A DNA stretch of 64,000 bases from Amoebophrya sp. A120 (taxonomy: Eukaryota; Protista; Dinoflagellata), in the NCBI GenBank assembly GCA_905178155.1, contig CAJINV010000005.1, positions 8,306,515 to 8,370,514 on the forward strand, given 5' to 3'. Position numbers and translations under genes: made by a program. Within the stretch, counting starts at the first letter, position 1, and each line of letters begins with the position of its first letter. Positions 1 to 62,430 of this stretch are shown in pieces. Under the pieces are notes generated by a model. The model was given only the letters and a program-made list of their open reading frames with translations. It was not told where the DNA came from and searched no databases.

Positions 1-3000
1 CGGATATGCATTGCAAAAGTTGTATCGTACTAGGTAGTACAAATTGCATATTTCTCAGCGTGAAAAATAAAAATTGAATTTGTCATGCTGTTTTACCTTG
101 GAAATGCGATTTGTAATGCATCACTGCAATTGCTACGAGTGCGATACTTTTGCACAGGATAACGGAGCTGGCGAGCTGATTTTCGCCAAGATTGCGGAGT
201 TACTGGCGCTACTGGAACGGTCGTGCTGCGGCGAGATCGAGTTTTTTTGCGCGATATCAACTGTAGAAATGTCTGGGTCTGGAAGAATGCAACTTGTCAT
301 GCTGATTTTGAATTCTAAAAAAATCTGTATTGCATGGGCAGCAAAGAGAGTCCAAGTTTTGCTACACGGAAAGAGCATTTGTCATGCGGTATAGCATCAG
401 GAAGCCTCACAAAATCTGTGATGCTAGGGCATGCATCACAGACATCAGAAGTCCTGCAAAATGTGCATGACAAACGTGGAAATCTTCCAGACCCAGACAT
501 TTTTACATTTGAAACGCGAAGAAAATTGAGACGGTCATGGTGAAGGACGAGAGCGGCGAGTTTGCGAAGTGGAAAAAGGAAAAGCAGCAGAAGCTCGACG
601 CCGATGGGAGAACGGCTCTGCGCGGGGGAGCTGCTGCGAGCAGCACGACCGCTGGTGCCAGTACAACATCGGACGAACCTCCTTTCCCCTACCCCTGGCC
701 GGTGGCATCGTTCTGTTCGGTGAAAGAGGAGTACGTGCGCAAATTCAGCCTGGCGCGGGAGTTCAAGGACCCAGGTACTGGCACGATATGACAGTGCGCA
801 ACTCCCCCTCCCCCTCATTTGTCATGCAAAAACCCAAATCCAGTTGCTCGTTGTGGCGCCGCGTGCATGACAAATTCCGGAAAGCCCGATAGTACTACAC
901 TCGGAGCATGAACCTGTCATGCACAGGACGCACCTGTACTGGTGTTTGTAATGCTGTTGATGCCACGCAAATGATAATGAGGAGGAGGTGGGGGGGTTGT
1001 GTACTCTCATACACGAACGCGTTGGATGTGAAGCAGTACGAGGTATTTGGAATATCAAATGCAAATATGTCTACTGGGTCTGGAAGTTTGGGATTTGTGA
1101 TGCTAACTCTCGATCCTACAAAAAACTGTATTGCATTACCAGCAAAAGGCGCTCAGATTTTTGCCACGACCCGGATCGGGCATTTCTCATGCAGGATAGG
1201 CATGATGAAGCCTTCGCGAGGGCTGCGATGCTAGAGAATGCACCACAGGCATCGTGGGTCATGTACTATATGCATGACAAACACCCAACTTTTCCAGACC
1301 CAGACATATTTGCAATGCATATGGAGACAAAAGCAACAATAGCAAACCTCCTTCACCGACCGCGTCGCTGTTCACCATGACACAGCGAAAAATGTACAAG
1401 AACTGCGGGCCGATCCCCAATCCCGAGGCAAGGCGGTCGAACTTGGAGGACTTGGTCGGCGACCGGCTGCAGTTTAACACCGGCCAAGCAGTGGAGGATG
1501 AAAAGTGGATCGAGGCGATTCGGGCTGTGTTACCAGTCATTGAATCGGCGGTGCGGGTGTACGATGAGGACTACTTTCACAACTTGCACCATCAGAACGC
1601 GCACGACTACAACCTGCGGGCCTCGAACCCGGAAAGTTCGTCGTCCGAGTGCAAAGTGAACATGAACGAGAAACTTCCGGTCGCAGAATGGCAAGTGGGG
1701 AACAGCTATCAAATGTAAAAGTGTCTGGGTCTGGAAGAATGCAACTTGTGATGCTGCATTTGGATTCCAAAAGAATCTGTATTGCATGAGTACCAAAGGG
1801 AATGTAATTCTTGCTACGCGAAGAGGGCATTTGTCATGCGGAATAGGCATCAAGAAGCTCTCAAAAAATCTGTGATGCTAGGGCATGCATCACAGACATC
1901 AGGGCTCATGCAAAACGTGCATGACAAGTGTCAGAATCTCCCAGACCCAGACATTTTTGCAATGCATAACAGCAACAGCGGGACGCGCGAGTCGAATCAA
2001 GTGCTGATGAACCCAGATCTACCTGCCTCCAAGGATCCCACGGAACCGCAGAACGCCAACCTGCGCGGGTATTTGGAAAACGAAAACCACCCTCTGTACG
2101 ACGGGTCTTTCACCTCCCGTGCACTGCAACCGATCCCAAACTTTTTGATGAAAATTATCCTGAGTAAAAAGAAAAACGTCCCCACCCCATAGTCAAGTTG
2201 GTAAATCTGCAACACAAATCTCCAAGGTTTGGGAGTTGTGCATGACAAGTTTCCATCTGCAGCGTAGTGCGGTGAGCAAGGGAAGCCGCATGAGAATGCC
2301 ACTTTCTCACCCTGGGTACAGCATTACAGATTCCAAAAAACGATTAGAAATGCCTCTCATGGAGATGCGCATTACAAATGTGTCTGTAATCGCAACTCTG
2401 CATGACAGCCATGGAGTGGGGACGTTTTTACTCAGGATACAAATCGAACAGGAGCTGGACGTCGTCATTGCCGACCTGGCGGCAATCACCGGGCTCTTCG
2501 GATTAGCGGTATCAAATGCAAATATGTCTGGGTCTGGAAGAATGCAAGACCTGTCATGCAGATTTTACATCACCCATGACGCCTGTAATGCATAACCTAG
2601 CATCACAGGAGATTTGTTAGAGGGCTTCCTGATGCCTATTCCGCATCAGAAATGCCCTCTCCATGTAGCACAAACTGGGCTCCTCTTGCTGGTCATGCAA
2701 TAAGTACAGATTCTTTTAGAATGTAGAGACAGCATCACAAGTTGCAACCTTCCAGACCCAGACATATTTGCATTCGATAAGCGGCCAGCAGGAACGAGTT
2801 GCTGCACTTCATTCCCACGACGAGAAAAGTGCTGCAGCACCTTGACGAATTGACGACCAGAATTGCCACCATTTTCGAGTACGAGTATTTGGTGCTGAAG
2901 AAAGACGTTTTGGAGCAATATGTGGAACTGTTTCAATACGCAGCCTACGAACGGGTCCGACTGGGAGCGGAGAAGGACAAGAAGCGAAATGCGGACGGCA

Positions 3001-3125
3001 GCGTGGTCGGGTATAGCGGAGCGACCGCGACTACGGGTGGTGCTGGTGGCGCCACTGCTGCTGCGCCCGCGGCAGCGCCGGCCCGAAGCGGGTGGAGTTT
3101 TCCGAGACCGGGCGGGTTCCGATGA
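1..3125 (+). CDS. Gene 1 (5'-partial), unknown protein, 7 TIR introns
   Basis: Elements at 5-161, 255-514, 787-1011, 1053-1321, 1707-1968, 2156-2439, 2510-2779. Removing each with one 5-bp TSD gives one frame: GAGELIFAKIAELL..EFFCAKKIETVMVKDE..GTGTNALDVKQYEVFGDKSN..QVGNSNSGTRES..FLMKIEQELD..FGLAASRNELLHF..PGGFR*, stop at 3125. Confidence 0.88.
255..514. mobile_element. Introner family A (39 copies, about 250-290 bp), representative copy
   Basis: TIR TATCAAATGCAAAWATGTCTGGGTCTGGAA / TTCCAGACCCAGACATWTTTGCATTTGATA; TSD CGCGA. Other starts: 1053, 1707, 2510, 7067, 12011, 12394, 12718, 13638, 13930, 14334, 15606, 16126, 16938, 17239, 18306, 19016, 19553, 22400, 22969, 24145, 24730, 25974, 28249, 32038, 33851, 36329, 38926, 41160, 43676, 51080, 51595, 54675, 55016, 55348, 58324, 59058, 60133, 61268. 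At least two internal subtypes. Confidence 0.95.
787..1011. mobile_element. Introner family E (4 copies), representative copy
   Basis: TIR TATGANAGTGCRCAACTCNCCCTCCCCCTCATTTGT; TSD CACGA. Other starts: 26267, 44952, 58670 (degenerate). Confidence 0.9.
2156..2439. mobile_element. Introner family B (14 copies, about 280-300 bp), representative copy
   Basis: TIR TATCCTGAGTAAAAACGTCCCCACCCCA / TGGGGTGGGGACGTTTTTACTCAGGATA. Other starts: 7781, 17951, 19863, 23261, 23803, 25054, 25648, 31159, 32559, 42222, 44610, 45251 (half), 52752. Confidence 0.95.
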
Positions 3126-3214
3126 GAAGCTCTTTCTGATAGTACTTTTTACCGGTGGTTCTTGTGTCAGACTTCCTATAATATGATTTCAACGCTTTGT
3201 AGAAGGAAATCCAA

Positions 3215-4119: not shown

Positions 4120-5518
4120 TAGAAGGAAATCCAATTTTTATGTACTCTGCAGTTTAAGTTTAACACCTGATGACTTACATCAAATCTTATCAAACTAGTC
4201 CAAGAAGAAATTTTATACAAAATGCGTTATTTCAGCCCAGAAGAAGTTTTAGTTTCACCTGTTGATGTTGTGTTGCGCAATTTTTATCGGAAGAAAGAAA
4301 ATGGAAAATTGATGACCTTAGCAGAAGATGACATTGAAAAGGTCTCCGCGGCGTCCCGAGCTGCAAATGAAAAAAGTTTTTAGAAAGTTTGACTTACTTG
4401 TTCCTCTTGCATCGAATGTGAATTGAAACAAAGAAAAATACTGGTAATACCCAACAAAAAAGGATGAAAATGCACCCCTCTTGTACTTACTTACACCCCT
4501 TTGGTTTAAATTTCGACTTGCGCCAGGATTGATTCGCATGCCAGGTTCTTGATGATGTTATGTGTACAACAAAAATTATGTAAAGGCAATAGCTGTTGTG
4601 TTTATCACAGCCACTACAGGAGAAAATACAAGAAACGGCAAGAACTAAGCTATCTACCACTTCCACCAGCCTTCAATATTTTTTCTGTCACTTGCTGTTC
4701 GCCATCCGCAAGTAGTGAAGGTGGCCCGTAAAATGTTGATGAAAGCGATTTTCGATGACTATAATTGGGGTTTCTTGTGGATGCTCAGGGGGATGAGGTT
4801 GTAGTCATGGTGCAATCGTCTCTACTCTTCTTCACGCTCGAAGACTCATCTCTGTGGGGGTGCAGAGATTACTTATATCTATTCCAACAATTATATCGCG
4901 TTCGCGTAGGTGTACTTGCGTATCTTGTTCCGTTGTAGTTTTTCTCAGGGAAGAAAGATCAAGACATCGTCGTCGCAATAGTCGTCCTCGGTTGATGTAT
5001 ACTTATTCACGACGCAAGCAAGTAGTTTCTCTGCCGCGTTGATTGGTTTATTTATTTCTTGTTGCAGCTCGGGGTAGTCGTAGTCCTTGATAATATGGGG
5101 CGTGGTCGTCTTTGTGGTAGTGGTTGTGGTTCGTATCTGTGGTTCGTATCATCTGTGGGAAGTGGAATCCAAGCACACGGTTGATGACTTCCGTTGCAGG
5201 GGATCGGATTGACACTCATCGATTAGTGGCACGAACACTCAGGACAAGGACCACAACGAATCGATTTCGGTGGTTTCAAAGCAGGGATTCATTTGTAGTC
5301 GAAACCTTCTAGTTAGTTGCACGACCTGTTTAAGTACGTACTTATCATTCTGTCGCAATTTTTCATCTTTTTCTGCTCGCGAGTAGAGTCAGTCGCTTCG
5401 AAATGCTGAACTACACTATACGAGCTGTTTTTTAGAATGAAGGCTAGCTCCGTGGAGTATTCATTGTTGTAAACGTACTAAAGAGAATTGTTCTTCTGTT
5501 TGATTGAAAATAAACCGA

Positions 5519-8500
5519 ATGATCATGAGGCCTCACGTTCCGGCTTCGGTGAGGATGTCCCGGAGGTGGAAAAAAAGGTGTCCAAGAACAGTAGTTTCTG
5601 CACATAAAAAGGTAAAAAATCCACCGGCAGAAGTTGTTGTGCAGCGGCCACTACTGAAGAACAAGAAGCGACCTGAACAAGAATTTCTTCCTTTCTTCCC
5701 GCGACGTTCTTGGTTCCGGTCCTGTCTGCAAATTTTTGTCATTTCTGGGTCGACGTTCTTCCTGCTCTTCCTTGGTCTTTTCTCGTGCGAAAAAGACCAC
5801 GACGACCACGAGCAGCACCATAAGTCCTCCTCCTGCTCGTCCCAGCAACATTGGCAGCATGACGAGCGCCAAACTATCAAAAGCAAAAGGCTTCGCACAG
5901 CACAGCAGCAGGAGCTTTGTCATCTTCGTGACCTCGCGGGAGCAGTACCACAGCCCGCGAATTTTCAACATCTACTTCATCCTGGCGCTTCATTTAGTAC
6001 AATTTTCGTGGCGGCAGCGGCACTAGAAGGAACCACGTCAGGCCGCACCAGAGCAGATGCAGAAAGCAACTCTGTTGTGGAGGATGAAGATCATTCTGCA
6101 GGAATCAAACTGCAACAACTACACGACCGCACGACAGCACGAGGAGGGGCGCAGGCGCAGCATCAGCTTGAAGATGTAGATGGTGAAAACAACATTACGT
6201 CGGCACTTCAGATGAGAAGTAGAACGGTACTAGCGCAAGAAGGACCACAAGCAGAAGTAGACTTGGCAGAAGCCCTGGAGGTGGAACAAGCTGCAGGCAG
6301 TCCAACAGATGACCACGACCTGGTAAACTTTTCGCCCGAGGACGAGAATAGTGAGCCTCAAGATCATCTTCAAAGCGGTGCGGGAGGAGAGCAAGAGCAT
6401 GATGGAAGAAGTTCTTACCTAGATGATGGTGCTGGTGATGTTCTTGTACCACGGCTATTACCACAAGAACAAATCGACCTTGGTCGTGGTGGTGGTGGAG
6501 AAAAAAAGACTACTACTAAAAGCTCTACTTCTACTTCCCCCACCACAGGAGCTGCCGCTTCTCACATCATCAACTCTCGTCCACCCGGAAGTAGCAGTTC
6601 ATTTGTGGACGAGTTCTTCCTGGAGAGCGACGGCGGGTCCTGGACAACATCTTTAGTACCCGCAAGAACTAGTACACCAGCATCTTCTTCACCTAGCCCG
6701 GGCGAGGGCGGTGGTCCTCGGGATGAAGGATGTAGTGAAGAAGACGAAGCAGGTGAAACTGGAACCACAGGTGGAACAACTACAAGGTGTAGCGGAATTG
6801 TTACGCTGAAAGCTTCAACATCTTCTGTGGTGCCAGACGTACAACATCGTGCCTCCGGACAGCAGAAGCTGTCAACAAGAACTTTCGCTTCTTCTACTGC
6901 AGCACCTTCTACAACAAAAACTTCTCTCGCAAGGACTACAACTCCCGAGTCTTTTCTCCAAAAATTTTTCCGGCAGCGTCGAGAAAGCGAAAAGCAGAAA
7001 ACAAGTCGGAAAATTGGAAAGATGGCCAGGGAAGAAGTAGAGCATCAAGTGCAAGAACGCGACGGGTATCAAATGAAAAAATGTCTGGGTCTGGAAAGTT
7101 GCAACTTGTGTTGCTGCCTTTGGAAGGTAAAAAAAATCTGTATTGCATGACCAGCAAGAGGAGCTCAGTTTGTGCTACGCGGAGTGGGCGTGTCTCATGC
7201 GGAATACGCATCAGATTCAGAAGGCCCTTATAAAAATCTATGATGCAGCTTGGTCATGCATTACAGGCATCATGGGTTGTGCAGAATATGCATGACAAAC
7301 CTGGCAGTCTTCCAGACCCAGACATTTCTGCACTTGATAACGGGTCGTACAGTTCCAATGGCGACGAGGACGAGGATGAGGACGGGCACTTTTTGGGTAG
7401 AAAAGATCCGAAGAAGGTCGCCCTCGAGAAACGTCGGAAGGAGGCGAAGCGTCTCGCGCTGGAGGATTTTAAGAAGAAACCGAAGCGGCGCGTGTACGTG
7501 GCCAGCTACAACGTTCTGTCGCTGCTGCAACACCGCAGCTCGGGGGGTCCGGACCTGCGTTCCATGAAATACCAGCTGCCAGACAAAAACAAATTTTTTC
7601 AAAAGTTTCTTAACATAGCGGAAAAAGACTTGCGAGCTGCAAAGTCAACGGAGCGGCCTGCTGCGATGAAGAAACAGAAGGATTACCTCCGCCTGGAGTT
7701 GGCCTGGAAGGAATTTGTTAACGGCCAATTGTGGACGCGGTACCCACTTACCTACTCGCAGCTGAGGGCCGTCGAGGGGTTATCCTGAGTAAAAACGTCC
7801 CCACCCCATAGTCAAGATGGGGACTTTGCAACACAAATCTAGGAGTTTTGGGAGTCACGCATGACAAGTTGCAGTCCGTAGTGTAGTGCAGGGTAGCAAG
7901 TGCAGCCGCATCACAGATCCATCTGCGTATCCTGTTCACAGCATCACAAATTCCAAAACACGACTGGAAATGTCTACCATGGCTATGCGCATCACAAGTG
8001 TCGTTGTCATTGCAAATCCGCATGCACAACCGCAAACGCAAGCGCCACAACTTTTAGCTGCGCAAGAACAACAGCCGCCGGCCCAGATGATGGTAGGAAT
8101 ACGGATGGGGAGGCCACTTAACGCACTAGTAGCTCTACTGCATGAAGTGAACGAACAACTAGACCAAGGAGCAGAAGATGGCCGAGAACGAGAGATAGAC
8201 GATGAGGAGGAGGCGCGAGGCAACGCTGCAATCCTACCGAACCCCAAGTACTACATCAGGACTAAAGACATCAAGAGGACGATGCGAAGGGCGTGGAACA
8301 GCATCAGAAAATGTAAAGAAGAACGAGAACGCAAACGGATCCCGGAGGAGGCAGCGACGGGGAGAAGCTGCTGCAAGGGCGCCGATACGAAAAAGGCAGA
8401 CGAGGGTATAATGAACGGAAGTAGAGGTATGGTTTAAATAAAGACTGCTGTTCTATTTCATAGTAAGAAATTAAATTGTTGATCACATTCACTGTTAAGG

Positions 8501-11500
8501 GCAGGAGGATAGAAGAGGAGAAGCGAAAATATAAGGAAAAGGGAAAAGAGGCGCGAGATACGAACGGGTCTGCAAGCTCCATTCTATGTACTTAGCTGCC
8601 GCGACATAGAATGGTACCCGTCAGGCTCGGGGAGCTACTCTCTATGAAATTGATGCAGGGCACAGACTTCGAATTCACTTTCCATAAAACAAGGGCTGGA
8701 CGGGACAGGTACTGACGTCGAAGCGCTCTGCGCCTGAGACGTCACACATAGCAACAGAGATCAAACGGGCGCCCTGATTCGATAACTACGCCGATGTTGC
8801 TATCTGGGACCAACATGCAGTCGCATCGCACACCCGGGAGAAATATAGTCAGATCATCTAACAAGAAAAGGGAAAGACACGCAACTAGGAACGGCGCGCT
8901 TTTGTGCATCTACTTCTCATCGAGTCCAGCAGAATGAGCCAAGGACACTGCCACCAAATCGACAACGGCCGCCCCGGGGTGGTAAGTGTCGACCAGACCG
9001 ACGGCAACATATTCTGCTGGGTGTGGGGAGTAGATTTCCAAAAGAGGAGGGAAGTATGTCTGAATATGCATGAAAAGCATGGAGATAGTGACCCTGAGTT
9101 ACCTTCATTTTTTCCGAGGGAAAAGTTTTGCATGCGAAGGTAAAGCAGGCTCGCGCTGCAAATCAGTGGGAGGAATGGATAAGTTATAGATTCAGGAAAA
9201 TTCTTGGCTATTTGTATGATTTGCATCTCTATGTATGTAGCAACCTTCACGTGGTGAAGCGTCCGCCAAATTGTATGAAAATTGTATGAGAGATTCCTGT
9301 TGCTATAATTTCTGGCATCATTCTAGCGGCAAGAATTATACCAATCTAAACCTCCGCCGAAATGCAGAGAGACATACTCGAGGCAGGGCGTCTACCTCTT
9401 TGCGTGTAAGGGCACCCGGCCCCTTTTCCTTTTCCTCTTTTTTTTGCATGCGGGTAGCCGAATAGAGGCTGAGCCGCATGCAATCCAAATCCGATTTGCT
9501 TGCTGCTGCTATGTATGCTTTGTATGTTTCCTGCCGCCTTGTAGTCGTTATTAAGCACCTCGTCTTTGCCGCTCTTCGTTTGTTTTGTCCAAGGAGCTAG
9601 ATCGCAAATTCGTGCGCTCCATCGCCTATGAAAAATTAGATCTTCCCTGTGCCCGGTGTTGTCCCATGTAGATTTAGGTCTCTACCCTTTTACAGTCTTT
9701 TGTCGTCTCCTCGCGCTTAGTCTTACTTGATCCACGACTTGTAGCGCTAGTCGTTCCGCGGACCCCGCGTCCTCGCAGGGGCTTTTCTTTTTTTTTCCGC
9801 CTAGCCAGCGGGTTGTTGCTTGGGGGGGTGTCAGCTTTGCGTGGCAACTTTATATGCGTGCTTTATTCCGGTTTTGCATGACAAAGATTTATTGGCTTTA
9901 CTACAGCACCCTGCAGACTATCTGCTTTGACTGCGTAGAGGCAACCGGTGTAGTCTTCCTAGCGCACTAGTTTCGCCCGCTGCTACCGGGTCAGTAGTTA
10001 GAAGAATTCAGGTTGCGCGGTCTCTAAATGGTCCGTGGGGGTGGCTTAAGTTTTGACTGGGTGACTTGTTAGCTCTAGAAAAAGCTCGCTTTCGTATTTC
10101 TAAGAACAGAAATTTTGCATGACAGATTCAGGCTCAGCTAAGCCGGTGTAGATAGTATCCCCCCGCACTGCTATGCCCCCAAACACATCTTTCCGGACGC
10201 TGCAAGATGGAGAGATGTGGCGTGTGCCGCTGCTACCGGCTCGACACGTAAAGGAAAACGAATCCGCGCGCTCGGCTTGGTAGCTACCCCCATGCCGTTC
10301 GGGTTTTAGCTGCCACTGGCGTCATTGATCGGCGTCGCCAATATCTCCATCCCGATGATTTCCATCTCTACGTTTGTGTATGGTGCATAGGAGCTTGCTC
10401 CTTTTTGTGCCGCGGTGTCGGAGGTTTTGCAGCATGCACGCACAAACAGCATTTATGGAAGCGGAGGGGGGGGCGCGGGACCCCCATCAAGTCGTCGCGG
10501 CGCGAAGCCGCAAATCCTTGGGCCACGTCTACCACCAGAAGTATTCCGCCCGGGGGCCGCTCAATCAATAGGCGGGCGCGTCCTATGCGGTCGGGTTTGA
10601 AAGGTACAGTCCGTGCGCCCGCAACTGCCGCAAGGCATCGAATCCGGGGGGTCAATATAAATTTTTTGTAGTGTTTTTTGATGCAATGTAGTGACGATGA
10701 TTCCGTAGCCTGGTTAGCCCGTCCAAACAGGGCAAAGAGCGCAGCGGCTTCCTGCGCAGCGGCTTCCTGCGCAGCGGCTTCCTGCGCAGCGTCGGTTCGT
10801 GCACGTGTGTCGCTCTTCGTTCGTTGCCTTCAGGAGCTTGATCGTAAATTCGTACGCTCCTTCTGCTTTGAAAAATTTCGATCTTCCCATCTGCCCCCAT
10901 CTTCCGATGTAGATTTAGGTCTCTACCCTTTTACTTCTTCTCTCGTGTAGTGTTCGTTGTTGTTTTACCTGACCCGCCTGCTTAGCGCTAGCCCGCGTAG
11001 CCCGCATCCTCGCAGGGGCAGCTGTTTTTTTTTCCGCCTTGCCAGCGGAGTTTGTCGCGGGGAAGAATGCAGTCTGGGTTCAACCGTCCCTCCCTCCCGG
11101 GGTTCAACCGTCCCGCCCCTCCTCATGTAAATAGTGAAAAACTTCTCTTGCGTTTTTAGTCTAGTCCTTTTTCCGTAGATCGTTTTTTATGTTCGACCTT
11201 ATGGCATCGGCGGCTGTCGCATTATGCGCCTGGTGTAGCTGTTCAAAGTCCCTCGGCATAAGGGTCATAGTCTCGTATACAAGGCGCGCGGCAGCTAAAT
11301 GCGCGCTTGGTCGTTCTAGAAAATTAGTACCAACTGACCCATTATCGGCCTATAGTATTCGTGGACCACCCCTTTGAGGAAGCGGGTGCGTTCGGTTGAC
11401 CACTTTCATAGGTTGGTCATGGGGAATTTATTCCCCACCTGTCATGCATGTTGGGTCGCCGAAGTCTCTGTTTTGCATGGCGTGCTCGAGTACCGGGGTG

Positions 11501-14500
11501 CTGGAAGACGAATTAGTTGCTAATAGATAGAATTGAAAAATTTTACTACTCTTCGTGCAGCGGCTTCTGCGCATAACTTTAGTCTCGACCTTTAGCCCCG
11601 CCCCCCCAAAAACATTACATATTTTACTACGTCTCCATCTACGTCCCATCGTAGACGTCTGCCGCGGCTTTCGGCATTAGACGTTAACTAAAACGAGTGC
11701 GTTGCGCGGGTTTAGGGTTCCCCCGGTTTGTATCTCCCGAAGGCATGCTTTGAAGGGTTTAGGGTTTCGAAAGAATTTATACCGCATGACGCGTGACGGG
11801 AGCACGCAATGTAAGCGCAGCGGGCGGGTACCGTTCTCGCCGTAACACAATTCCAGAAAGAAAGAAAAGAAGTGAGCCCCTCCCGCAGGCAAAAAAAAAA
11901 AAAAATCTGCATGACAACTCTGGGGTGGGGACGTTTTTACACAGGATAGGGGTGTGTCAAGAGCTACCCGGCATCGATGACGCCCTGGCGCGTGCCCGAC
12001 AGTGCCGGTCTATGCATTGCAAATATGTCTGGGTCCTCTGGAAGATTCTGAGACCTGTCATGCACGTTTTGCATGAGCCATGATGTCTGTGATGCATGCC
12101 CTAGCATCACAGATTTTTTCAGGGTTTCTTGATGCCTATTCCGCATGACAAAGGTCCTCTCCGCGTTGCAAAAATTCCATTTCCTTTGCTGCCTATGCAA
12201 TACAGATCTTTTTGGAATCCACACGCAGCATCACAAGTTACATCCACCTTCCAGGCCCAGACATTTTTGCACTTGATACGGTCGTCTTGCTTTCGATCAC
12301 GTCACGGCGCCGGGAGGAAAGTATCTTCAGCATCCGGCCATGTGCACCTGGGACGCCGGGCATTGGATCGCGAAATCGCAGTTGAGGTTCCCGTATGAAA
12401 TGCAAAAATGTCTGGGTCTGGAAACTTGTGATGCTAAAATGTGCATGATGACAACACTTCCGAATGCAGTCCGGCATGACAACTTCCCAAAACGCTTTCT
12501 CATAGGCAATCCGCATGAGAAACTCCGTTTTTGCATGACAAAAGAGGCTGCGACTTTTGTTCGTTATGCAATACAGATTTTCTAGGTATGGAAAGCTAGC
12601 ATTACAAGTCCCAACCTTCCAGACCCAGACATTTTTACAATCTATATCCCGTTGGCGCTGCTGGGTGTGCAGGGCTGGCCCGATGTGAAAACCAGCGTCT
12701 TGCCGCAGCAAGTTTCGTATGGATTGCAAATATGTCTTGGTTTGGAAGAATGCAGATGTTTGTCATGCTTGTCTCACATGACTCTTGAACCTGGAATGCG
12801 TGAGCAGGAAAAGACCCTCTTACCTGTCATGCAAAAATGTAGTTTGTCTTTGTCATGCGGAAAGCTAAACACATAGGAGCCCAGAAACTTGTCATGCGTG
12901 GCTGCCTATTGCAGTGTTCCCACAATTCACAAATTAGCATCACAAGTTTCCAGACCCAGACATATTTGCAATGCATATGTCAAGGGGACGTTGGTCCTCG
13001 GCAGGGGAGCAGGAGCAGAGTTTGATATCAAGGAAAAAAACGTTGTTAGTGTAAGTTTGTGATGCGCAACATTCAAGCTGATTGCGTCTGTCATGCTTGG
13101 CATGCGTCGTAGGGTTCATCAAAGGGCGTTTTCAGATAGTATCTGCGCATGACAGGTTTTTGCTGTCATGCGAGAGATATTTGCCATGCTGTTCCTCCAA
13201 AAAAGTTACACCTACAATGTTTTTTTCTTGGATATTTGAGTCCGGATGCTTACAAGTACGCCCTGCCCTTCGCTCATCCGTTTTACGAGACCCGAGCGCG
13301 GTATGGGAGTGTCAGGATCGAAATCGTCAAAGTTGAAATAATCTGTAATGCAAAAGAGCGATACCAGCTGGATAGCCCAGTTTGCAAGTGGCGCATGACA
13401 AATTTTGGCAGCATGGAAATCCAATTTGTCCTGCTGTTTGAGCAGAGAAGACTGCTTTGCTATTTTAGCAGCTCTATCTTACACCCCAAACTGGCTTATA
13501 ATCGGCCTCAGTTGCCTGCTCTGCAAGACAGGCCCACTGCGTCTAGCATTTTATGCATCACAAACTATTTCAACGTTGACCATTTCAATCCTGACGCTTC
13601 CATACGAGGGCCAGGACCTGGCTCCTTGACGGACTCATATCAACCGCAAATTATGATATCTGGGTCTAGAGGAAGAATGCAAGTAAAGTTTGTCATGCTT
13701 GTCTCACATGACTCTTGAATCTGTAATGCATGAGCAGGAAAGCAGCCTCTCACCTGTCATGCGAAAACGCAGTTTGTCATGCGGGAAGCGAAACACATAG
13801 GAGCTCAGAAACTTGTCATGCGCGGCTGCGTAACGAAGTGCGCCCACCATTCACAAACTAGCATCACAAGTTTCCAGACCCAGACATGTTTGCAGGTCAT
13901 AACCCAACGCCAAGGATCCGCAGCGCGAGTATGGATTGCAAATATCCCTGGATGTCTGGAAGGTTGCAACTTGTGATGCTGTCTCTGCATTCCAAAGAAA
14001 TGTGTATTGCATGACCAGCAAGAGAGGTCCTGTTTGTGCTACATGGAGAGGGCGTTTCGCATGCGGAATAGGTATCAGGAAACCCTCTAAAGATCTGTGA
14101 TGCTAGGTTATGCATTACGGGCGTCATGGGTCGTGTAAAATCTACATGACAAGTCTTCCATATTTTCAGAACCAGACATATTTGCATTTCATAGCGAAGA
14201 CGGCAACCGATTGGCAAAGTGGCAACGATTGGCAAAGTTTCAACCCGATCGGAACGCGCGGTGGCAAATTGGCAACGCGCACAGGTCGTGCGCCATCTTG
14301 CTGGACCTCGACACGTTGATGCGGGGCGGGGAATATCAAATGCAAATATGTCTGGGTCTGGAAGATTGCAAGGTTTATTGTCATCCACATTTTGCATGAC
14401 CCGTGATGTTTGTGATGTATGCCCCAGCATCACAAATTTTTTGCGGGCATCTTGACGCCTATCCCGCATGAGAAATCCCCCTATGTCGCGGAGCAAAAAC

Positions 14501-17500
14501 TGGACGCCTCTTGCTGCTCATGCAATACAGATTTTTTTCCCTTCCAAAAATAGCATCACAAGTTCTTGCATTCGTCCGGACCCAGTAGACATTTTTGCAA
14601 TACATAGGGAAATGTCGAACGAGGGGGAGAGGGAGTACAACCCCGACGAGGCGGACGAGGGCGAGGGCCGGCCCGGTATCACGAGGAAAAATCCCCCCTC
14701 CCCATATCAAAAGGAAGTTTCTGATGCTGGATTTGCGTATACAGATCAGGTTTGTCTTGCAGTAGAGGACAGCAGGCTCCTGCCAAGCCTGAGTAGAGAG
14801 CTTTTGGCCTAGGCGCTTAGCATGAGAAACGTCTATGCTGTAGGCCCAGTAGCATCACAAACCGCCTGCATAATGCGGTAGAGCCTGTGGAGTTGTCTTC
14901 TTGCAAGACAGACGTGATTTGTGGCCTCAAATCAGCAAGACAGCGCACCTGTTCGATATGGGGAGGGGGGATTTTTCCTCTCAATACCCGGCGTCGGCTC
15001 GCAGGAGCAGGGGCGGAAGAGAAACAAAAGCCGCGATAAATTTTACCTGGACGAGGAGATTCTGCGTTTTGACACGCACGCAGATTTAGGGTTTGACGGA
15101 GTGGACGAAGACGCGGCGCACAAGCAGCACTTTGTGGAGAAAAACCTCGTTTGCCTCACGGCGATCTACGTCCGGAGGCTGAAACTGGTGTTTGCCAGCG
15201 CAGAGCTTTATGGGCGGAACAGCAATTACGACTGGGAGCACGAGGTCGAGCATATCCTGCTTCCTCCCAAGTTCACGGACACGGAGGTGCGGAAACGAAT
15301 GGAGGCCGACGCGAAGAAGTACAAACTTCGCACGTTTCTGAACAAGGCCGAACCCCCAAACGCAGTCGACAAGGAAAAATGGATCCGAGAAAATGTGCCG
15401 CAGGACAATGCGCGGGACGCGATGCAAACGGTGTGTACGTACCTAGCCAGGATGCTGGAGAAGCGACTGGGAGGTGTAGAAGATACAACTAAGCGGATGG
15501 AAAATAAGAAGCGAGATGCCTCAAGTAATATGCGAGTTAGTGCGAGCAAGGCAGCAGCGAAAACTACGGCGGACGGAGGTCAACGCGAGGTTGTTGACCC
15601 TGGTATATCAAATGCAAAAATGTCTGGGTCTGGAAGACGACAAGTTTGTCATGCGCATTTTCCATGATCATCTACGATGTCTGTTATGCATGCCCTAGCA
15701 TCACAGATTTTTTGGGCGCTTATCGATGCGCATCCCGCATGACAAATGCCCTATCCGTGTAGCCAAATTTGGCTGCTCTTGCTGCTCGTGCAATACAGAT
15801 TTTTTTTTAGCATCCCAATGCAGCATCACAAGTTGCAACCTTCCAGACCCAGACGTATTTGCAGTCCAAATGGCGACGGGTGGTACAATTCGGAGGAGAT
15901 CGATGGAAACGCTGAAACGTTCCGAACGAGTGGTTATAACACGGACGGAGCGGGCGAGGAGGCCGGGGGGTTGTATGACCTGCCAGCACAAAGGGAGAAG
16001 AAGAAGACGAAGCGGGGCGGTGGGTCCTTTTCCGCATTCGTCGAAAAGAGGACTTGGAAACAGAAAAACACCATTTTCGGAAGCAGAAGAACCAGCAAGA
16101 AGCCGAGTGGTAAAGAGCAAGAGCGTATGCATCGCAAGTATGTCTGGGTCTGGAAACTTGTGATGCTACAGTGTGGATGATGGAAACACTTCCGAATGCA
16201 GCCAAGCATAAGAACACTCCAGAACGCTTTCTCATGCGCAGCCCGCATGAGAAACTGCGTTTTTGTATGACAGAATAGGCTGCGGCTTTTGTTGGTCATG
16301 CAACACGACAAATCCCACAGGAATGTAAGACCAGCATTACAAGTTCGAACTTCCCCCCAGACACAGACATATTCGCAGTGGATAGAGCGACGTGGCAAAA
16401 ATCGGCACCATGAGCACCACCGCAGAAAGAGCAGAAAGGGGAAAAGGACTATTGTAAGGAAAAATGCTCCCATCCCAGAACTTGGAAGCATTTGTATTGC
16501 AAACTCTTCCAATGGAAATATTTGCCCTCTTGCATGTATCAGCATCACAATCGTGAATAAAGCAACCTCTTGCATGTATTTTCAATCGTGAATAAAGCAA
16601 AAATTTGCATTGCAAAAGACCCCAGCAAGAGCACTGCTTGTCATGCAAGCGATGCTGTATACCTATACGACTAAAATCTGCATCAGAAAAATTCATAGTC
16701 CTTTCATTGGCAAAAAGTTTTCATTTGGAAACTTCGCATCACAAATTGTCGCAACTTGCGGGGTGGGGGCATTTTTCACTGCAATAAGGCCTGCCGGAAG
16801 TTCCTCCCGAGACCGGCGTGGCAGCAGAAGCCGACGAGAGGGGGATTCCCGTCGAGAGCGCGGGCGTACAAGCCGACCTTCTGAGCGGCGGAGAAAGCTG
16901 CGGCCCCCGCCGGATAAGATTGCGCTAGATGGCAAGTTATCAAATGCAAAAATGTCTGGGTCTGGAATGTTGCCGGCTTTGTCATGCATATTCTGCATGA
17001 CCCAGGATGTCTGTAATGCACGACCTAGCATCACAGATTTTTGGCGGGCTTCCTGATGCCTACTCCGCATGACAAATGCCCTCCCCGCGTAGCACAAACT
17101 AGCCTCCTTCTGCTGGTCATGCAATACAGATTTTTTTAGAATCCAAAGTTAGCATCACAAGTTCCAACCTTCCAGACCCAGACACTTTTACACTTGATAC
17201 AAGTACATGGTGGGGCCGCGATCTTTTGGACCACAGAATATGAAATGCAAAAGTGTCTGGGTCTGGAAGCTTGTAATGCTGGGCGGCGTCTCATGATGAG
17301 GCTACGAATGCTGGCTCAGCATGACAAGTTTCTGAGCTCCTAGGTGTTGCCTATTCTGCATGACAAACTGCGCGTCTGCATCACAGAAAAGCGTAGCTCT
17401 TGGGCAACGTGCATGACAGATTTAAACATCATGCCAGACAAGCATGACAAACATGAATTCTTCCAGACCCAGACATTTTTACACTTGATACAGAACAAAG

Positions 17501-36658: not shown

Positions 36659-37027
36659 TTGATTAATGAATCAAGATCAGGCTGGGAGTAGGAGTACTGT
36701 TTCCACCCTAGTCGGTCGTCCTCGACGTCTTCCTGTCTTCTCCGGACCACGATGGTGAAAATAAATTCGAGGTGCGCGGCGATGTCATGATTTGTTGGCT
36801 CGCCTCGCTTCTGTCTCCGTGTTGCCCATCCAATGGAGACAACCTGGTGCTGCAGGAGCACTTCCTGTGCGAGCGAGAATTCCTACCCTGGCAGGCGTGC
36901 CTGTGCTACTAACTTGGAGCAGTTCTAAAATTCTATACCCTCTTTCTTCACCCTGTAGTTTTCGTTGTACTTAACTCTTCTACCCACCACGACCTTGAGA
37001 AATGAAACGAATACGTTAAGTGAGTCA

Positions 37028-44300: not shown

Positions 44301-45284
44301 GGCAACGGAGGACGAGCAGGCGAAGATTACGTGGGAGGCGCTGGTTGGTGGAAAAGTTGGCGGTAATCAAGGAAAAAGGAGCCAGTCACGATGTGCCTTT
44401 CGCGTTTTTTATTTTTTGCCACGGCATTGGTATTTGAATTTCGTTTGTCATCAAGATATGCATTTGTTGTGTCTGTGTGTATAGGAAGTCGATGAAAACA
44501 ACATTATATATAATTGTCTTTGTCGATGTTTTGTACCATGACGCCTTGATGCAGTCGCTTCTGTAGAAGTGAGATGGCAAGCCGCGAAAAGCGTTTCCTC
44601 AGCACGGGATATCCTGAGTAAAAACATCCCCACACCAGGGTCAAGATGGGGATTTTGCAACACAAACCTAGAACTTTTGGGGGTCACGCATCACAAGTTG
44701 CAGTCCGTAGTGTAGCGCAGGTTCGCAAGGCCAGCTGCATCAGAAATCCATCTGCTCATCCTGTTTACAGCATTACAAATTCCAAAACACGACTAAAATA
44801 AAATGCCTCTCCTGGCGATGCGCATTACAAATGTTCCTGTCATTGCAAATCTGCATGACAACTCTGGTGTGGGGACGTTTTTACTCAGGATACGGGAACT
44901 GGCGTGCTTATATAGCATGAGCGATCCTCGTGATGAAGTTTCTTTCTTGCATATGAGAGTGCACAACTCACCCTCCCCCTCATTTGTAGGGCATGAGGAG
45001 CAATACAAGCGTCGGCAAGAGTGCAGGCTTTGCATGACGAATTCGCCCCGGATGGTAGGGTTGTTTGGGCTGCCAGAATCTGTCATGCAAAGAAGTGCCA
45101 CGAGGCAAACGGAAAGGCGCGTTTGGTATTCAACATGACAAATGAAGAGGGGGAGGGGGAGTTGTGCACCCTCATATTGCATACCTGGCATCGAGAAGCC
45201 TCGGGTCTGGAGGGGAGAGATGCGCCCGCCAACAGGGAATGGGGATTAGGTATCCTGGGTAAAAACGTCTCCATCTTCCGGTAG
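37981..45284 (+). CDS. Gene 4, putative secreted/surface protein (paralogue A); 3' end appears truncated
   Basis: Signal-peptide-like start MATKTAAALLCAYLVLFDGPIGFLFVSAVA. Elements at 38926-39198, 39255-39533, 41160-41421, 41553-41872, 42222-42525, 43118-43447, 43676-43943, 44610-44892, 44952-45176, and a half element from 45251. Inferred GT-AG introns at 40053-40151, 40251-40776 and 44363-44566. I could not resolve the frame between about 42670 and 43090 (frameshift or unseen exons). Confidence 0.65.
39255..39533. mobile_element. Introner family L (2 copies at the homologous site of genes 4 and 5)
   Basis: TIR TATGCCAAGAAAAA / TTTTCTTGGCATA. Second copy 53281-53567. Confidence 0.88.
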
Positions 45285-58121: not shown

Positions 58122-61100
58122 ATGGCCACCTCCCGTACCCGCCCCCCCTCCGATCGGGAATTGGACCAGACTTTCGCCAAACTTGCTGACCAAATCCGGG
58201 CCCAACTTGAGGTGTTCGTGGACCCTAGCAAAACGAGTGCTGGGGGTAAGTCCGTCGTTTTCGGGAAGATCGGAGGGAGCAGGAATCAGACAGCTGGAAG
58301 GACTTTCTCATCGAGGAGCGCACTATCAAATGCAAATATGTCTGGGTCTGGGAGTGGGAGACTGCTAATTTGTCGTGCTTGTCTCGCATGATTCTCAAAT
58401 CTGTGATGCAGGAGGAACAGAGGAAAACCACTTTGCCTGTCATGCAAAAGCGCAGTGTGCCATGCGGAATGCGCAACACATAGTGGCTGCAAAACTTGTC
58501 ATGCTCGGCTGCGTACTGCAGTGCGCCCATCACTGGCGGACTTGCATTACAAGTTTCCAGGCCCAGACATATTTGCAAGGCATACGCACACGTCCAACAC
58601 CATTTCCCCAAGCCCCAGCTGTACCGCTGCTCGAACACCGACCGCAACCAGCATCACAGACTGTCGAAATATGGAAGTGCACAGCTGTAGTAAGTACCTC
58701 TCGTGGTCCCCAGGTCTCATTTGTAAGTTTGTAGTTTTGTGATGCAAAAATACCAGAATCCCAGACCAGTCGTGTCTTCTCGACGTATGCCACTGTTAAT
58801 GAAGAACTCAACGGACACAGCACTACAACGATCCGAGCAGGAACCAAGATTTCTCTCTATGAACGTTGCAGAAGCCGCTTGGTTCTTTCTTCTCGCTGTA
58901 GCAGCCTTTGCTTTATCGATGCCCTTTATTTTTCGATACGGGAAATTTATTTTTGGCGGGAGGTGGTGTGCACTCTCATACGAAAGCGTTGAACGCTTGG
59001 CTCGACAAATTTTACCACGATGTGTTCTCTGAAGACGAACGGGCAATCTGGGCCTACTATCAAGTGCAAAACTGTCTGGGTCTGGAAACTTGTGATGCAA
59101 AAAGTGAATGGTAGACGGACTGCAATACGCAGCTATTCATGACAAATTTTTTGGCTCCCATGTCTTACGTATTCCGCACGACAAACTGCGTTTCTGCATG
59201 ACAGGTAAGAGGGCCTTTTCGTGCCTGTGCAACACAGATTCTCGAGTCATGCTAGACACGCATGACAAACTTGCACTCTTCCAGACCCAGACATTTTTAC
59301 ACTTGATACCTACACCGAAGAATTCAATCTTCCATCTTCCACTACCGCATCACAACTGTACCGCGCAAAAGAAGCAACGGTGGAGGCGAACAGGAATAGT
59401 GTGAAATCGCTCCGGAACGCCCATGCGGCGGCGCTGTTGCTGGGGTTGATCGATGTGGACGTGCCGTTGCTGGACCGCTTCAATTATGAACTGCAAAAGT
59501 ATCGTACTCGTATAAATGCATTACAAATTTCCTCAGCATGACAAATAAAGTTTGTAATGCGGATTTCCCTTAAGAAAAAAATTTGTATGCAAGGCGTTGG
59601 GTTACCCGGTCGGCAGAGCCGATCCACAACGAGCGAATGACTGCAATACGAGTGCGATGCTTTTGCACACGATATCAAAAAGCCGCCCCACCTCGGGCCG
59701 TTGCGACCGTTGCCGAGCGGGTTTGTGCTGCGAGTGCGACATCTGAAACTGCAAGCCAGGACCAATGCGCTGTCGGGGTTTGAGTTCGGGGGAACCTGTG
59801 GTACAACTACGGGGGCGATGTTTGCGCCGCAGACAAGAAGTGGTAGTTGTACAACTTCTAGGGGAATGAACAACTTCTACAATAAAGCGATCGTTTGTGG
59901 CAGACATCAAAATCTCCTGCCAGATAACTTTCTCCTCTTCGACAACAAAAATTCCTCCAGCAGCACACGAGTCCACTACCTGGAGCACTTATTGCACGAA
60001 ACTCGGGACAAATTTTCTAAAACCGCGGACGAGCGGCGTAAGCTGATGCGGAAAATTGAAGTTTTGCAGGAAGACAACCGGCGGCTGCGGACGAAAATGG
60101 TCACGAAGGTGAATTCAGCGGCGAGTCTGGAGTATGAAATGCAAATATGTCTGGGTTTGGAAGATTAAAACTTGTCATGCTAAATCTGAATGATGCAAAA
60201 ATCTGTGTTGCGTGACTACCAAAAGCTGTCCCCTTTTGACCAAATTGAGTTGGAGTTTCTCATGCAGGAAAGGCATGATAAAGACCTAAAAGAATCTGTC
60301 ATGCTAGTTCTCGCATTTCGATTTCAGACCTCATGGCTCATGCAAAACGTGCATGACAAGTCGCAGCATACTCCAGACCCAGACATTTTTGCATTTGATA
60401 TGGAGAATACTACAACTGCCGTGGTCGCGAATGCGAAGCAGGAAACGCAATTTCATTTGAACCGTGTTGAGGCTCATTCTGGAAACAAGGAAAACTTGGA
60501 AACCACCTTTGACGAGGTTTTGTCGCATCTGGAACCGAACTGGAACCACGCGAATGATAACAATAACACCAGAGCAGGACCACTTTCCTCTGTCCGTCGG
60601 AACTCCACCCGGGTGCTTGAATATGACGATCCAGGAACAAGAACAATCTACGGCAAAAACATGGGCAACACCTATCCTGTGCAAAAGTATCGTACTCGTA
60701 GTAATCGCAGGCATGCATTACAAATTTTTTTCCTAAGGTCAATCAGCATTACAAATTCCATTTCTCATGCGGAGAAAATTTGTAATGCAATTCATACTAG
60801 AACTAGTGCGATACTTTTGCAATGCATAACACAAGCACAGCAACGAAGCCGAATTTTTCCGCTTTGTCGCACGACCATCACAAGTTTTCTGTGGAACAAG
60901 GTGACGAACAAATACAGTTGCAAACGCTGACGGATTTCAGTACTGGGGAGATCATACGGAAGAACAACGCCAACTCACAGCAACTCCTGCGAGATGAAAA
61001 TTGTTCTCGCGATGAACAGACCTCCGCAATGTTGACCGCTCATGATTTCCAGCTCCAGTCTCGTTTCGCGGAGAACGAACGGATTTTGGAAACGGAAGCA

Positions 61101-62430
61101 GAGTTTGTTCGGAGCCGGGGTTTGCGCGGAATGCCAGTGCCGAAAGCGGATTTGGTAGATGGGACGGATAGTAGTTGTGAGAATTCAAAGATCGAGGTAG
61201 AAGCAGAACAAAAAGTAGACCACGACTCGCCCGAGAAGATTGAAACGTACTTGAACGGAAAATTGCCTACGCATTGCAAATATGTAGTCTGGGTCTGGAA
61301 CGAAGGAAGGATGACACTTGTGATGCTGCATTTGGATTCTACAAAAATCTGTATTGCATGAACCACAAGAGAGATCCAATTTTTGCTACAGCGAGAAGGT
61401 ACTTAATTCTCATGCAGTATAGGCATCCGGAATCCCTCGCAAAATCTGTGATGCAAGGGCATGCATCGCAAGACATCAGGAGTCCTGCAAAATGCGCATG
61501 ACAAGCCTTGCATCTTTCCACACCCAGACACATTTGCGATTCATATTGCCGGAGTGTTTGCTAAACGAAACCATGACCACAACTTCGGGAGTACAACCAG
61601 GTATATCCCACGAAAAAACTGTTTCACTGTGAACTTGCGATGCATAGAATGGAGCACAGAACTATCTGTCTTGCTACACCTGCAAGACCTTGACTCTTTA
61701 GTGGTGTTTAGTTCCCCTTGAAAGCGCGCATGGCACATTTTCCGTGTCATGTGTAACAAACTTGTGATGCAGATCTTGCAAAATCATCACAGTGAAACAG
61801 TTTTTTCGTGGGATAAGCAAGTTCTAGTTTTTATTCCGGAGTAGAACACACGACCGGTCAGCCGGCGATCATGCTGGGAGCAACCTTCACCAGCTATCGC
61901 AGGAAAAAAGTGTTACAGTTACACATTGTGTTGCAAGCCCAGCATGACAGACAGCCTCTGTCATGCCGGATAAACCTAGAAGCCTTGTTTCATACGTGTT
62001 TTCCCGTAGGATTTCTGCACTGCAAGTTTTCTCTCTAATGCAGAGAAATTTGTGTTGCTGCATTGACAACAAATGTGTAACTGTATCACTTTTTTCTTGG
62101 GATACCTGCGCAGCTACAGGTACTAGTAGTTCTACTACAGGAGTAGACCGGTTGGCTCTGAGCACCACAATCGGGGCGGGGAATATGGAAACGTATTTGA
62201 ACGGACGGCTGCCGGATGTGTTGTTGTTGTCCAACGCGAACAATAAACAGGCTGCTGCAGCTCCTGCTGCCTCCCAACACAGGCGGGAACAACTACACGA
62301 TGATATAGTAAACACGGAGGAACAGATTGTGTCAAGTCCGAAAAATAAACCCGTTCGTACCGCAGAGGACAAATTTGCTTCGTACTTGACCAAATTTACA
62401 ATGGAAACCACGGAACTGCTGAAGCGGTAA
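58122..62430 (+). CDS. Gene 7, unknown protein with a coiled-coil segment; 9 TIR introns
   Basis: Elements at 58324-58584, 58670-58980, 59058-59308, 59485-59674, 60133-60400, 60673-60828, 61268-61545, 61604-61815, 61895-62104. Frame open from MATSRTRPP to ..TELLKR*. Internal repeat ETYLNGKLPECLL / ETYLNGRLPDVLL. GTAAGT at 62427 may be a donor to further exons. Confidence 0.82.

What the first reader, a model, noticed from the sequence alone, without database searches (positions are those of the whole stretch)
5..62104. 97 TIR/5-bp-TSD transposon-like elements from about 14 families act as non-GT-AG introns in every gene
Seen: each element runs TA(T)...ATA with roughly 15-30 bp TIRs and a 5-bp direct repeat (e.g. 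CGCGA 255-514, CACGA 787-1011, ACAGC 1707-1968). Removing the element plus one repeat copy restores a continuous frame across 25 consecutive elements in gene 2 and 38 in gene 3, and rebuilds WW, J and RING domains. Most borders cannot be read as GT-AG. Known: inverted-repeat introner elements with short direct repeats and non-canonical splice sites were reported in Amoebophrya (Farhat et al. 2021); to my knowledge the removal mechanism and the transposase are unresolved. Inference: one mobilisation/excision system serves many unrelated TIR families. TAT..ATA ends with a 5-bp TSD match no superfamily signature I know (Transib has 5-bp TSDs but CAC..GTG ends).
Basis: partly seen in the sequence, partly recalled or inferred. 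Interest (0 to 1): 0.92.

Follow-up and report, generated by a model that had tools for sequence, protein, structure and literature searches.

The report
Hairpin transposon introns of Amoebophrya type
Nearly half of this DNA is 96 small transposon-like copies inside protein-coding frames, matching a type already published for the parasite Amoebophrya; they lie in either orientation, and the cell likely removes them from its RNA by recognising their paired ends rather than ordinary intron signals.

Summary
I find 96 TAT...ATA elements (47.5% of the window) with a 5-bp duplication. Removing element plus 5 nt opens frames across 25 and 28 consecutive copies; gene 3's 38 also need two predicted GT-AG introns. 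They match the Amoebrophya A120 introners of Farhat 2021, and Gozashti 2025 already lists '5-bp TSD, TA/TA termini, Ginger' for one A120 family.

Not found in the papers I read, from the window plus 411 copies in metagenome contigs:
(1) copies lie in both orientations (19:19), with symmetric ends and no GT-AG excess;
(2) 14 of 15 families share an internal motif, often 31-33 bp apart;
(3) insertion sites carry a one-sided, family-specific motif 10-13 bp from the duplication (T-N-G in 224 of 289; 14-55 at shifted offsets), independent of element and gene orientation;
(4) removing a 4.2-kb cargo-laden copy also restores the frame.

Likely mechanism: integrase-type transposases insert them, and a hairpin-recognising cut-and-ligate route, like a precise SOS splicing, removes them from RNA (about 50%). 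No RNA was tested and no transposase was found. The scan's earlier notes held nothing relevant.

The parts
2..3122 (+). Gene 1 (5' end cut by the window): 453 codons after removing 7 elements (5-161, 255-514, 787-1011, 1053-1321, 1707-1968, 2156-2439, 2510-2779)
255..514 (.). Typical element of the largest family F0 (38 copies, about 260 bp, 19 in each orientation); duplication CGCGA
5504..21204 (+). Gene 2: 1445 codons stop to stop after removing 25 elements; no Pfam family above cut-off on the two exons scanned
7781..11948 (.). 4168-bp element of the 280-bp family, duplication GGGGT, carrying a poly(A)-tailed insert of about 3.9 kb (about 8031-11905); removing element+5 restores the gene 2 frame; no transposase domain in its longest ORF
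17530..17836 (.). Element whose downstream duplication copy would put a stop in frame, so the upstream copy must supply at least 3 of the 5 bases
20193..21049 (.). 857-bp element with a nested poly(A)-tailed insert (about 20458-20990); duplication GATTC
22308..36655 (+). Gene 3 (WW and J motifs): 38 elements plus two predicted GT-AG introns
31731..31928 (+). Predicted ordinary GT-AG intron in gene 3
   Evidence: inferred from frame only
33076..33204 (+). Predicted ordinary GT-AG intron in gene 3; holds two copies of the elements' internal motif
   Evidence: inferred from frame only
33851..35205 (.). 1355-bp F0 element with internal tandem-repeat cargo; duplication TGCGC
36329..36611 (.). F0 element with 3 of 5 duplication mismatches; locus L054 (91% identical downstream) lacks it and matches the upstream copy
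37969..40132 (+). Gene 4: 534 codons, 2 elements (38926-39198, 39255-39533); paralogue of gene 6, which lacks the first element and shares the second
40572..45250 (+). Coding region with 7 elements (41160, 41553, 42222, 43118, 43676, 44610, 44952); ORF pieces of 449 and 265 codons; other introns not resolved
50049..53758 (+). Gene 6: 858 codons, 4 elements
54590..57133 (+). Gene 7: 470 codons, 4 elements; C3HC4 RING split by element 56745-57068
58029..62427 (+). Gene 8: 739 codons, 9 elements, the last at 61895-62104
16920..16923 (+). Example of the one-sided target motif (TTGC, 13 to 10 bases before the duplication of element 16938-17199); 27 of 45 window copies of F0 and the 150-bp family have T-Y-G on exactly one side, none on both

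Best explanation
These are 96 short TAT...ATA inverted-repeat elements of the published Amoebophrya introner type, lying in either orientation inside reading frames, and they are likely inserted as DNA by integrase-type transposases and likely removed from pre-mRNA by a hairpin-recognising cut-and-ligate route that does not use GT-AG. Insertion (inferred): a few related DDE transposases of the Ginger/IS3EU kind would bind the repeated internal motif (A)AYYTGTVATGC and the family-specific inner TIR, recognise a 3-4 base motif on one side of the target 10-13 bp from the cut, and join the element in either direction with a 5-bp stagger. Removal (inferred): the two ends would pair, up to 4.2 kb apart; the conserved TAT-N7-AAA stem would be measured so that the element and exactly one copy's worth of duplication leave; and the exons would be joined by an RNA ligase, as in SOS splicing but precise. 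The cut likely falls near the upstream TAT, with the downstream duplication copy leaving with the intron. Shown: anatomy, frames, orientation, motifs. Not shown: transcripts, enzymes, exact cut.
For: Frame restored only by element+5 (90 of 95). F0 lies 19:19 in + strand genes. With strand-called contig copies, 8 of 9 families are compatible with 50:50. The 5' and 3' ends have the same base profile on the sense strand in 251 copies. There is no consensus in the duplication and no GT-AG excess. TAT deviates 1.3% against 6.6% at internal A/T sites in families not used for the search, and 1.7% against 6.4% duplication mismatch. Arms are predicted to pair in 89 of 92 copies on both strands, and in the three long copies. 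31 of 95 duplications are imperfect (11 with 2 or more mismatches) while 93 of 95 junctions sit in open frames, so repeat identity seems dispensable. 96 copies lie in about 19.6 kb of coding sequence and none in 13.5 kb of non-coding. The internal motif is at 18.7/kb inside against 0.33/kb outside, in 14 of 15 families, and 210 of 1012 same-direction pairs are 31-33 bp apart. The target motif is T 83%, Y 81%, G 89% in 237 F0 sites. Published: over 60% non-canonical RNA-supported introns and U1 snRNA not found; TIR pairing triggers RTCB-dependent, apparently spliceosome-independent excision in animals.
Against: No RNA data were obtained for this window. No transposase domain was found in 16 ORFs from the window and L021 or in the 100 longest contig ORFs (100 of 198 scanned). 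There is no clear G-U over A-C excess in the stems (54:60 in the window at positions 1-13; 146:109, p=0.024 at 14-24 combined, but 81:68 in the contigs alone), so selection on RNA pairing is not shown. Predicted hairpins follow from any TIR. TAT conservation may partly reflect transposition rather than splicing. SOS splicing is imprecise and leaves indels, unlike what is needed here. Amoebophrya keeps nearly all spliceosome proteins and U2/U4/U6. The 212-bp family is skewed 18:6 (p=0.02, one of nine tests). Codon likelihood favours the upstream copy at duplication positions 1-3 (32:18) but not 4-5 (19:24), and one synonymous empty-site case matches the downstream copy.
Confidence: 0.5

Rival explanations
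1. A modified, U1-independent spliceosome removes the elements: the hairpin brings the ends together and replaces donor and acceptor recognition, while U2/U5/U6 still do the chemistry.
For: 83 of 89 spliceosome proteins and U2/U4/U6 are present, U1 snRNA was not found. Ordinary GT-AG introns appear to coexist in gene 3. Tunicates process TIR-derived non-canonical introns with an altered spliceosome (listing and passages). A slight 5' bias in conservation of base 1 (1 against 7 deviations, p=0.07).
Against: Both orientations occur, so a branch point and 3' signal would have to exist on both strands of every family. The ends are symmetric, and the 3' junction has no fixed base in any register. 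Both-orientation introners in Polarella still recruit G-N and AG from a constrained duplication; here the duplication is unconstrained.
Confidence: 0.35
2. The elements are excised from DNA, as in ciliate IES removal, in a transcribed stage or genome copy.
For: TA-bounded ends, DNA-type internal motifs in helical phase and independence from orientation all fit a DNA-acting enzyme.
Against: The elements persist in this assembly and in environmental DNA contigs of a related genome. Duplications decay without loss of frame. The published introns were defined from RNA against the DNA assembly. A separate somatic genome is not known in this group (recalled).
Confidence: 0.07
3. The polymerase skips the hairpin or cruciform by template switching between the direct repeats, or the published junctions are partly reverse-transcriptase skipping artefacts.
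For: A hairpin flanked by short direct repeats is the classic substrate for template switching (recalled). The published junction positions are ambiguous.
Against: Open frames across 25-28 consecutive copies mean real removal must occur. 11 of 95 copies have 2-4 mismatches in the 5-bp repeat, and a 4.2-kb copy restores the frame.
Confidence: 0.08

Closest known systems
Amoebophrya A120 introner elements (Farhat et al. 2021, PMC7789003; sections 10-12 and 16 read whole, supplement legends and Tables S4, S5, S7 seen, figures not visible)
   Same: Ends start TAT, then 7 variable bases, then 3 or more A; 3-5 nt direct repeats with a 5-bp example; about 240 nt average for non-canonical introns; many families; non-canonical borders; co-oriented genes.
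   Different: Nothing that separates the class. Orientation independence, the shared internal motif and the one-sided target motif are not in the parts read (word search for 'orientation' and 'excision'). That paper found no transposase in A120.
A120 family 38 and other A120 TIR introners (Gozashti et al. 2025, PMC12130899; passages, and 50 of 58 A120 rows of Dataset S2)
   Same: [quoted passage not shown]
   Different: fam38 is 808 bp with Copia/Gypsy-like ORF homology; no window copy is of that kind. Most other rows are 'Unknown', with automated TSD calls of 2-6 bp.
IS3EU/GingerRoot and Ginger2 DNA transposons (PMC10045372, PMC6839031, PMC12730594; passages)
   Same: TA..TA ends; fungal IS3EU end TAYGG, as two window families do; integrase-type DDE enzymes; Ginger2 makes 4-5 bp duplications by one source.
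   Different: IS3EU/GingerRoot duplications are usually 6 bp; Ginger ends are TG..CA; GingerRoot shows no base preference in the duplication; no transposase was available here.
hAT5 (cited in PMC12730594; passage only)
   Same: 5-bp duplication; Dfam hAT5/hAT6 terminus models hit one A120 family; repeated subterminal motifs are typical of hAT (recalled).
   Different: No hAT transposase seen; hAT5 end sequences were not compared.
SOS splicing (Zhao et al. 2025, PMC12779559; abstract, passages, Discussion whole)
   Same: Removes TIR transposons from mRNA, triggered by pairing of the ends, rarely at GU-AG, apparently without the spliceosome.
   Different: Imprecise, leaves indels, works with scrambled ends, shown in worms and human cells; the paper has no mention of Amoebophrya or introners. 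Here removal must be precise and TAT is conserved.
Euglenid nonconventional introns (PMC12501133, PMC11282704; passages)
   Same: Paired ends, direct repeats at junctions, lengths up to kilobases, unknown route.
   Different: Signature N3CDG...CH'GN5-6|R with a purine rule at the junction; circles reported; no such junction rule is seen here.
Asymmetric target of barley Helitrons (PMC5738225; passages)
   Same: A short motif on one side of the insertion, about one helical turn away.
   Different: Helitrons are polar and make no duplication; here a TIR element inserts either way round relative to the motif, and the motif differs by family.

Membership tests
Amoebophrya A120-type introner elements | Inverted repeats starting TAT, 7 variable bases, then 3 or more A | tested here: met
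   TA at 96 of 96 5' ends; A at positions 11-13 in 85-88 of 96; definition
Amoebophrya A120-type introner elements | Direct repeat of 3-5 nt at the borders | tested here: met
   5 bp, at most 1 mismatch in 84 of 95
Amoebophrya A120-type introner elements | Repeated families, non-GT-AG borders, inside genes | tested here: met
Amoebophrya A120-type introner elements | Host in the Amoebophrya lineage | tested here: met
   Indirect: contigs with the same families include L054, 91% identical to the end of gene 3; an L008 protein's best named hit is Amoebophrya sp. A25, E=2e-85. Window exons gave no hits
Amoebophrya A120-type introner elements | Removal shown by RNA reads | not testable with these tools
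IS3EU/GingerRoot | TA..TA termini | tested here: met
   definition
IS3EU/GingerRoot | 6-bp duplication | tested here: not met
   6 bp exact in 0 of 95
IS3EU/GingerRoot | Integrase-type DDE transposase in an autonomous copy | tested here: inconclusive
   None in 116 ORFs scanned; no genome was held
Ginger2/TDD | TG..CA (TGT..ACA) termini | tested here: not met
   TAT at 394 and 395 of 411 contig ends, TGT at 4 and 1
Ginger2/TDD | 4-5 bp duplication | tested here: met
   definition (one search gives 6 bp for Ginger2)
hAT5 | 5-bp duplication | tested here: met
hAT5 | hAT transposase and hAT5 end sequence | not tested
   No transposase found; no reference ends at hand
Transib | CAC..GTG ends (recalled; CA..TG for the CMCT clade) | tested here: not met
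   Ends are TAT..ATA
SOS splicing substrates | Ends able to base-pair in the transcript, junctions rarely GU-AG | tested here: met
   Predicted pairing only
SOS splicing substrates | Imprecise excision with indels | tested here: inconclusive
   Frames over 25-28 consecutive copies imply precision, but no RNA was seen
SOS splicing substrates | Needs RTCB, AKAP17A, CAAP1 | not testable with these tools
   No host genome or experiment
Spliceosomal introners (Polarella/Aureococcus type) | GT/GC/GA and AG carried or recruited from the duplication | tested here: not met
   GT-AG 6, GA-AG 4, GC-AG 1 of 95 over all registers; chance level nearby

The most novel reading that the evidence does not exclude
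This lineage runs a precise, spliceosome-independent splicing pathway for tens of thousands of coding introns, triggered by paired TAT-N7-AAA ends at any distance and in either orientation. It is fed by an undescribed clade of integrase-type transposases that each read their own short motif on one side of the target, about one helical turn from a 5-bp cut.
Probability: 0.38. Interest if true: 0.88.

Novelty: already known. Interest (0 to 1): 0.55.

Why it matters
The elements are known, but how they are removed and what moves them is open in the papers I read. The new measurements turn both questions into direct tests. Orientation independence and symmetric ends predict no lariats and dependence on an RNA ligase. 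The internal motif and the family-specific one-sided target motifs give a fingerprint for finding and assaying the missing transposases. If the best reading holds, a eukaryote depends on a second, structure-guided mRNA splicing route for much of its proteome, a precise counterpart of SOS splicing. That would also explain how TIR transposons can fill coding sequence at little cost.

Tried and rejected
Host genome: none held.

RNA evidence: not obtained, so removal at RNA level stays open for this window.

Annotated full-length proteins, to read the splice register: two searches with gene 2 exons found none among 7983 and 932 candidates.

Autonomous element: no match for three TIR patterns in viral contigs or one in prokaryote genomes. 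No transposase family in the ORFs scanned (98 of 198 contig ORFs not scanned). The long copies inspected hold poly(A)-tailed inserts, tandem repeats or other cargo.

Guide pairing between variable TIR bases and the flanks: the best p was 2e-4 in 1280 tests, so nothing survives correction. An apparent link at flank -15 was family confounding with the target motif.

G-U wobble excess: not replicated.

Donor/acceptor asymmetry of the ends: seemed present in the window alone, but was not significant with 251 copies.

Target motif as a codon-phase or gene-strand effect: rejected; it is present in all three phases, 50 upstream against 48 downstream.

The L013/L034 empty site as evidence for the cut: dropped, gene strand unresolved.

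Rfam: no hit in the window.

Earlier scan notes: none by words, one unrelated by sequence.

No paper linking SOS splicing or RTCB to Amoebophrya, or reporting this target motif, appeared in the listings of searches. The library lacks most subscription papers and Repbase Reports, and I could not see supplementary figures.
Full report
Verdict. The elements are the published Amoebophrya A120-type introners, so the class is known. What the tools add is a sharper anatomy that narrows how they are inserted and removed. No transcript and no transposase was seen.

Catalogue. An unbiased scan for direct repeats around inverted repeats returned TAT...ATA elements, including the three named ones. A targeted scan gave 125 candidates, 76 of them strong, against 1 and 4 in two shuffles. 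I kept 81 by eye, dropped 44 weak ones and added 15 by homology. The 96 copies cover 30,404 bases, 47.5% of the window; the median length is 268 and the range 118-4168 (which lists all coordinates). Clustering gives 12-20 families, 15 at the middle threshold, the largest with 38 copies. The duplication is 5 bp: identity across the junction is 87-93% at five positions and 15-33% at all others.

Frames. Removing element+5 gives ORFs of 453, 1445, 807, 534, 449, 858, 470 and 739 codons, all on the + strand. Other cut lengths fail (90 of 95 against 22-26). Gene 3 needs two further predicted GT-AG introns. A copy at 7781-11948 is 4168 bp long because of a nested insert, and its removal still restores gene 2. 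All 96 copies lie in about 19.6 kb of coding sequence and none in 13.5 kb of non-coding sequence. I drew those boundaries from my own ORFs.

More copies. One end motif found 176 stretches in metagenome contigs, all listed ones from a single assembly prefix, held as 162 loci. I dropped 6 overlapping loci, trimmed 3, and found 411 elements in 562 kb without using bases 1-3; the same method recovers 84 of the 96 window copies with no extras. In the 307 copies on loci of 2 kb or more, element+5 is again the best cut, though with less contrast (184 against 115-131). L054 matches the end of gene 3 at 91%. An L008 protein's best named relative is Amoebophrya sp. A25. Copies of the largest family in these loci were selected by the search pattern, so I report conservation for the other families. 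L034 was left out from then on in the flank and alignment analyses, as it overlaps L013 and L025.

Removal signals. The largest family lies 19 sense and 19 antisense. Adding 158 strand-called contig copies (of 411), eight of nine families fit 50:50 and one is 18:6. The two ends look alike on the sense strand. GT-AG is no more available than chance, and the duplication has no consensus. TAT is conserved beyond internal sites (1.3% against 6.6%, p=1e-8) and beyond the duplication clock (1.7% against 6.4%). Arms are predicted to pair on both strands (89 of 92), which any TIR would do, and a wobble-pair test gave no firm sign of selection on RNA.

Where the cut falls. Three cases favour keeping the upstream duplication copy: a stop codon at 17530, the L054 empty site and an L008 paralogue. 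One synonymous case matches the downstream copy, and codon likelihood supports the upstream copy only for bases 1-3. The exact cut is unresolved.

Insertion signals. The families are not unrelated. A motif TGT-V-W-TGC occurs at 18.7 per kb inside and 0.33 per kb outside, in 14 of 15 families. The stricter TGT-V-ATGC is in 473 of 493 copies; it usually starts 33-45 bp from an end, and 210 of 1012 same-direction pairs are 31-33 bp apart, three helical turns. It diverges half as fast as its surroundings (3% against 6.5-7.5%). I read it as a transposase binding site; that is inference.

Target motif. The flanks hold a motif at 13 to 10 bases from the duplication. For the largest family and the 150-bp family, T-N-G is on the left only in 105 sites, right only in 106, both in 13 and neither in 65 of 289; shifted offsets give 14-55. 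In the window alone T-Y-G is on one side in 27 of 45 and never on both. A two-sided mixture fit gives T 83%, Y 81%, G 89%, Y 75% for 237 sites, with a control maximum of 0.13 bits. The side is independent of element orientation (42/42/38/37) and of gene strand (50 against 48). The 280-bp family has T-N-A at the same distance (17 of 33 against 24 of 237, p=1e-7). Smaller families show other or unclear patterns and are too few to trust. This is a DNA-level signal and suggests several related enzymes with different target contacts. No base-pairing guide between ends and flanks was found.

What is known. Farhat 2021 (PMC7789003) describes A120 ends as TAT, seven variable bases and three or more A, with 29,850 repeated introns in 1954 families. 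It reports over 60% non-canonical RNA-supported introns and no U1 snRNA, and no transposase in A120. Gozashti 2025 (PMC12130899) reports a TIR family with Copia/Gypsy-like homology and tabulates it as Ginger with 5-bp TSD and TA/TA termini. IS3EU/GingerRoot share TA..TA ends but make 6 bp; hAT5 makes 5 bp. So the elements work like integrase-type TIR MITEs but fail one defining test each for IS3EU and Ginger2. SOS splicing (PMC12779559) is the closest worked-out removal route but is imprecise. Both-orientation introners in Polarella still use spliceosomal bases. An asymmetric target is reported for Helitrons. I saw no report of the internal motif, the target motif or orientation independence for Amoebophrya in the parts read; supplementary figures, 8 of 58 A120 table rows and subscription papers were not seen and could hold them.

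Scores. Membership in the published class about 0.93. Mechanism: hairpin-guided cut-and-ligate 0.5, modified spliceosome 0.35, template switching 0.08, DNA excision 0.07. Interest 0.55: not a new system, but the added anatomy makes an open question directly testable.

Noticed in passing
window 8031-11905 and 20458-20990: Two poly(A)-tailed inserts nested in elements, each between about 11-bp repeats beginning AAATC, sharing a 43-bp segment; the shorter insert has relatives in L063 and L100. They look like retro-insertions that favour one site type inside the elements.
   Followed up: partly
element ends, positions 4, 5, 7 and 10 (window and loci): These positions differ in 25-45% of nearest-neighbour pairs whose interiors differ by only about 8% (positions 7 and 10 already 25-29% at 3%). 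The two ends of a copy match at 4, 5 and 7 no more than at random. Unexplained; end swapping or local hypermutation are possible.
   Followed up: partly
window 37913-37950 and 49990-50030: Single right ends of the largest family about 30 bases before the start codons of paralogous genes 4 and 6, preceded by pyrimidine-rich DNA; possibly decayed copies outside coding sequence.
   Followed up: no
window 45251-45296: Lone left end of the 280-bp family, without a partner, near the edge of a duplicated segment.
   Followed up: no
window 33076-33204: The predicted GT-AG intron holds two copies of the internal motif; it may be a decayed element that became canonical.
   Followed up: no
window 36650-40132 and 46038-53758: Tandem duplication of an intergenic stretch and a gene; the second copy has about 3 kb of GCGCGC-rich repeats inserted at about 46900-49950.
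   Followed up: partly
window 33894-34973: Cargo of tandem repeats with a period of 92 bases, plus a shorter repeat, inside the 1355-bp element.
   Followed up: no
window 11710-11770: Two telomere-like GGGTTTAGGG units inside the 4.2-kb cargo (label recalled).
   Followed up: no
window and strand-called loci: Junction phase is uneven, 79:115:57 in 251 copies, probably a result of the target motif meeting codon structure.
   Followed up: partly
L018:2635-6090: A C-5 cytosine DNA methylase split over two adjacent ORFs.
   Followed up: no
L016:290-840: A 551-bp element enclosing what looks like a fragment of a host hydrolase gene, read by eye.
   Followed up: no
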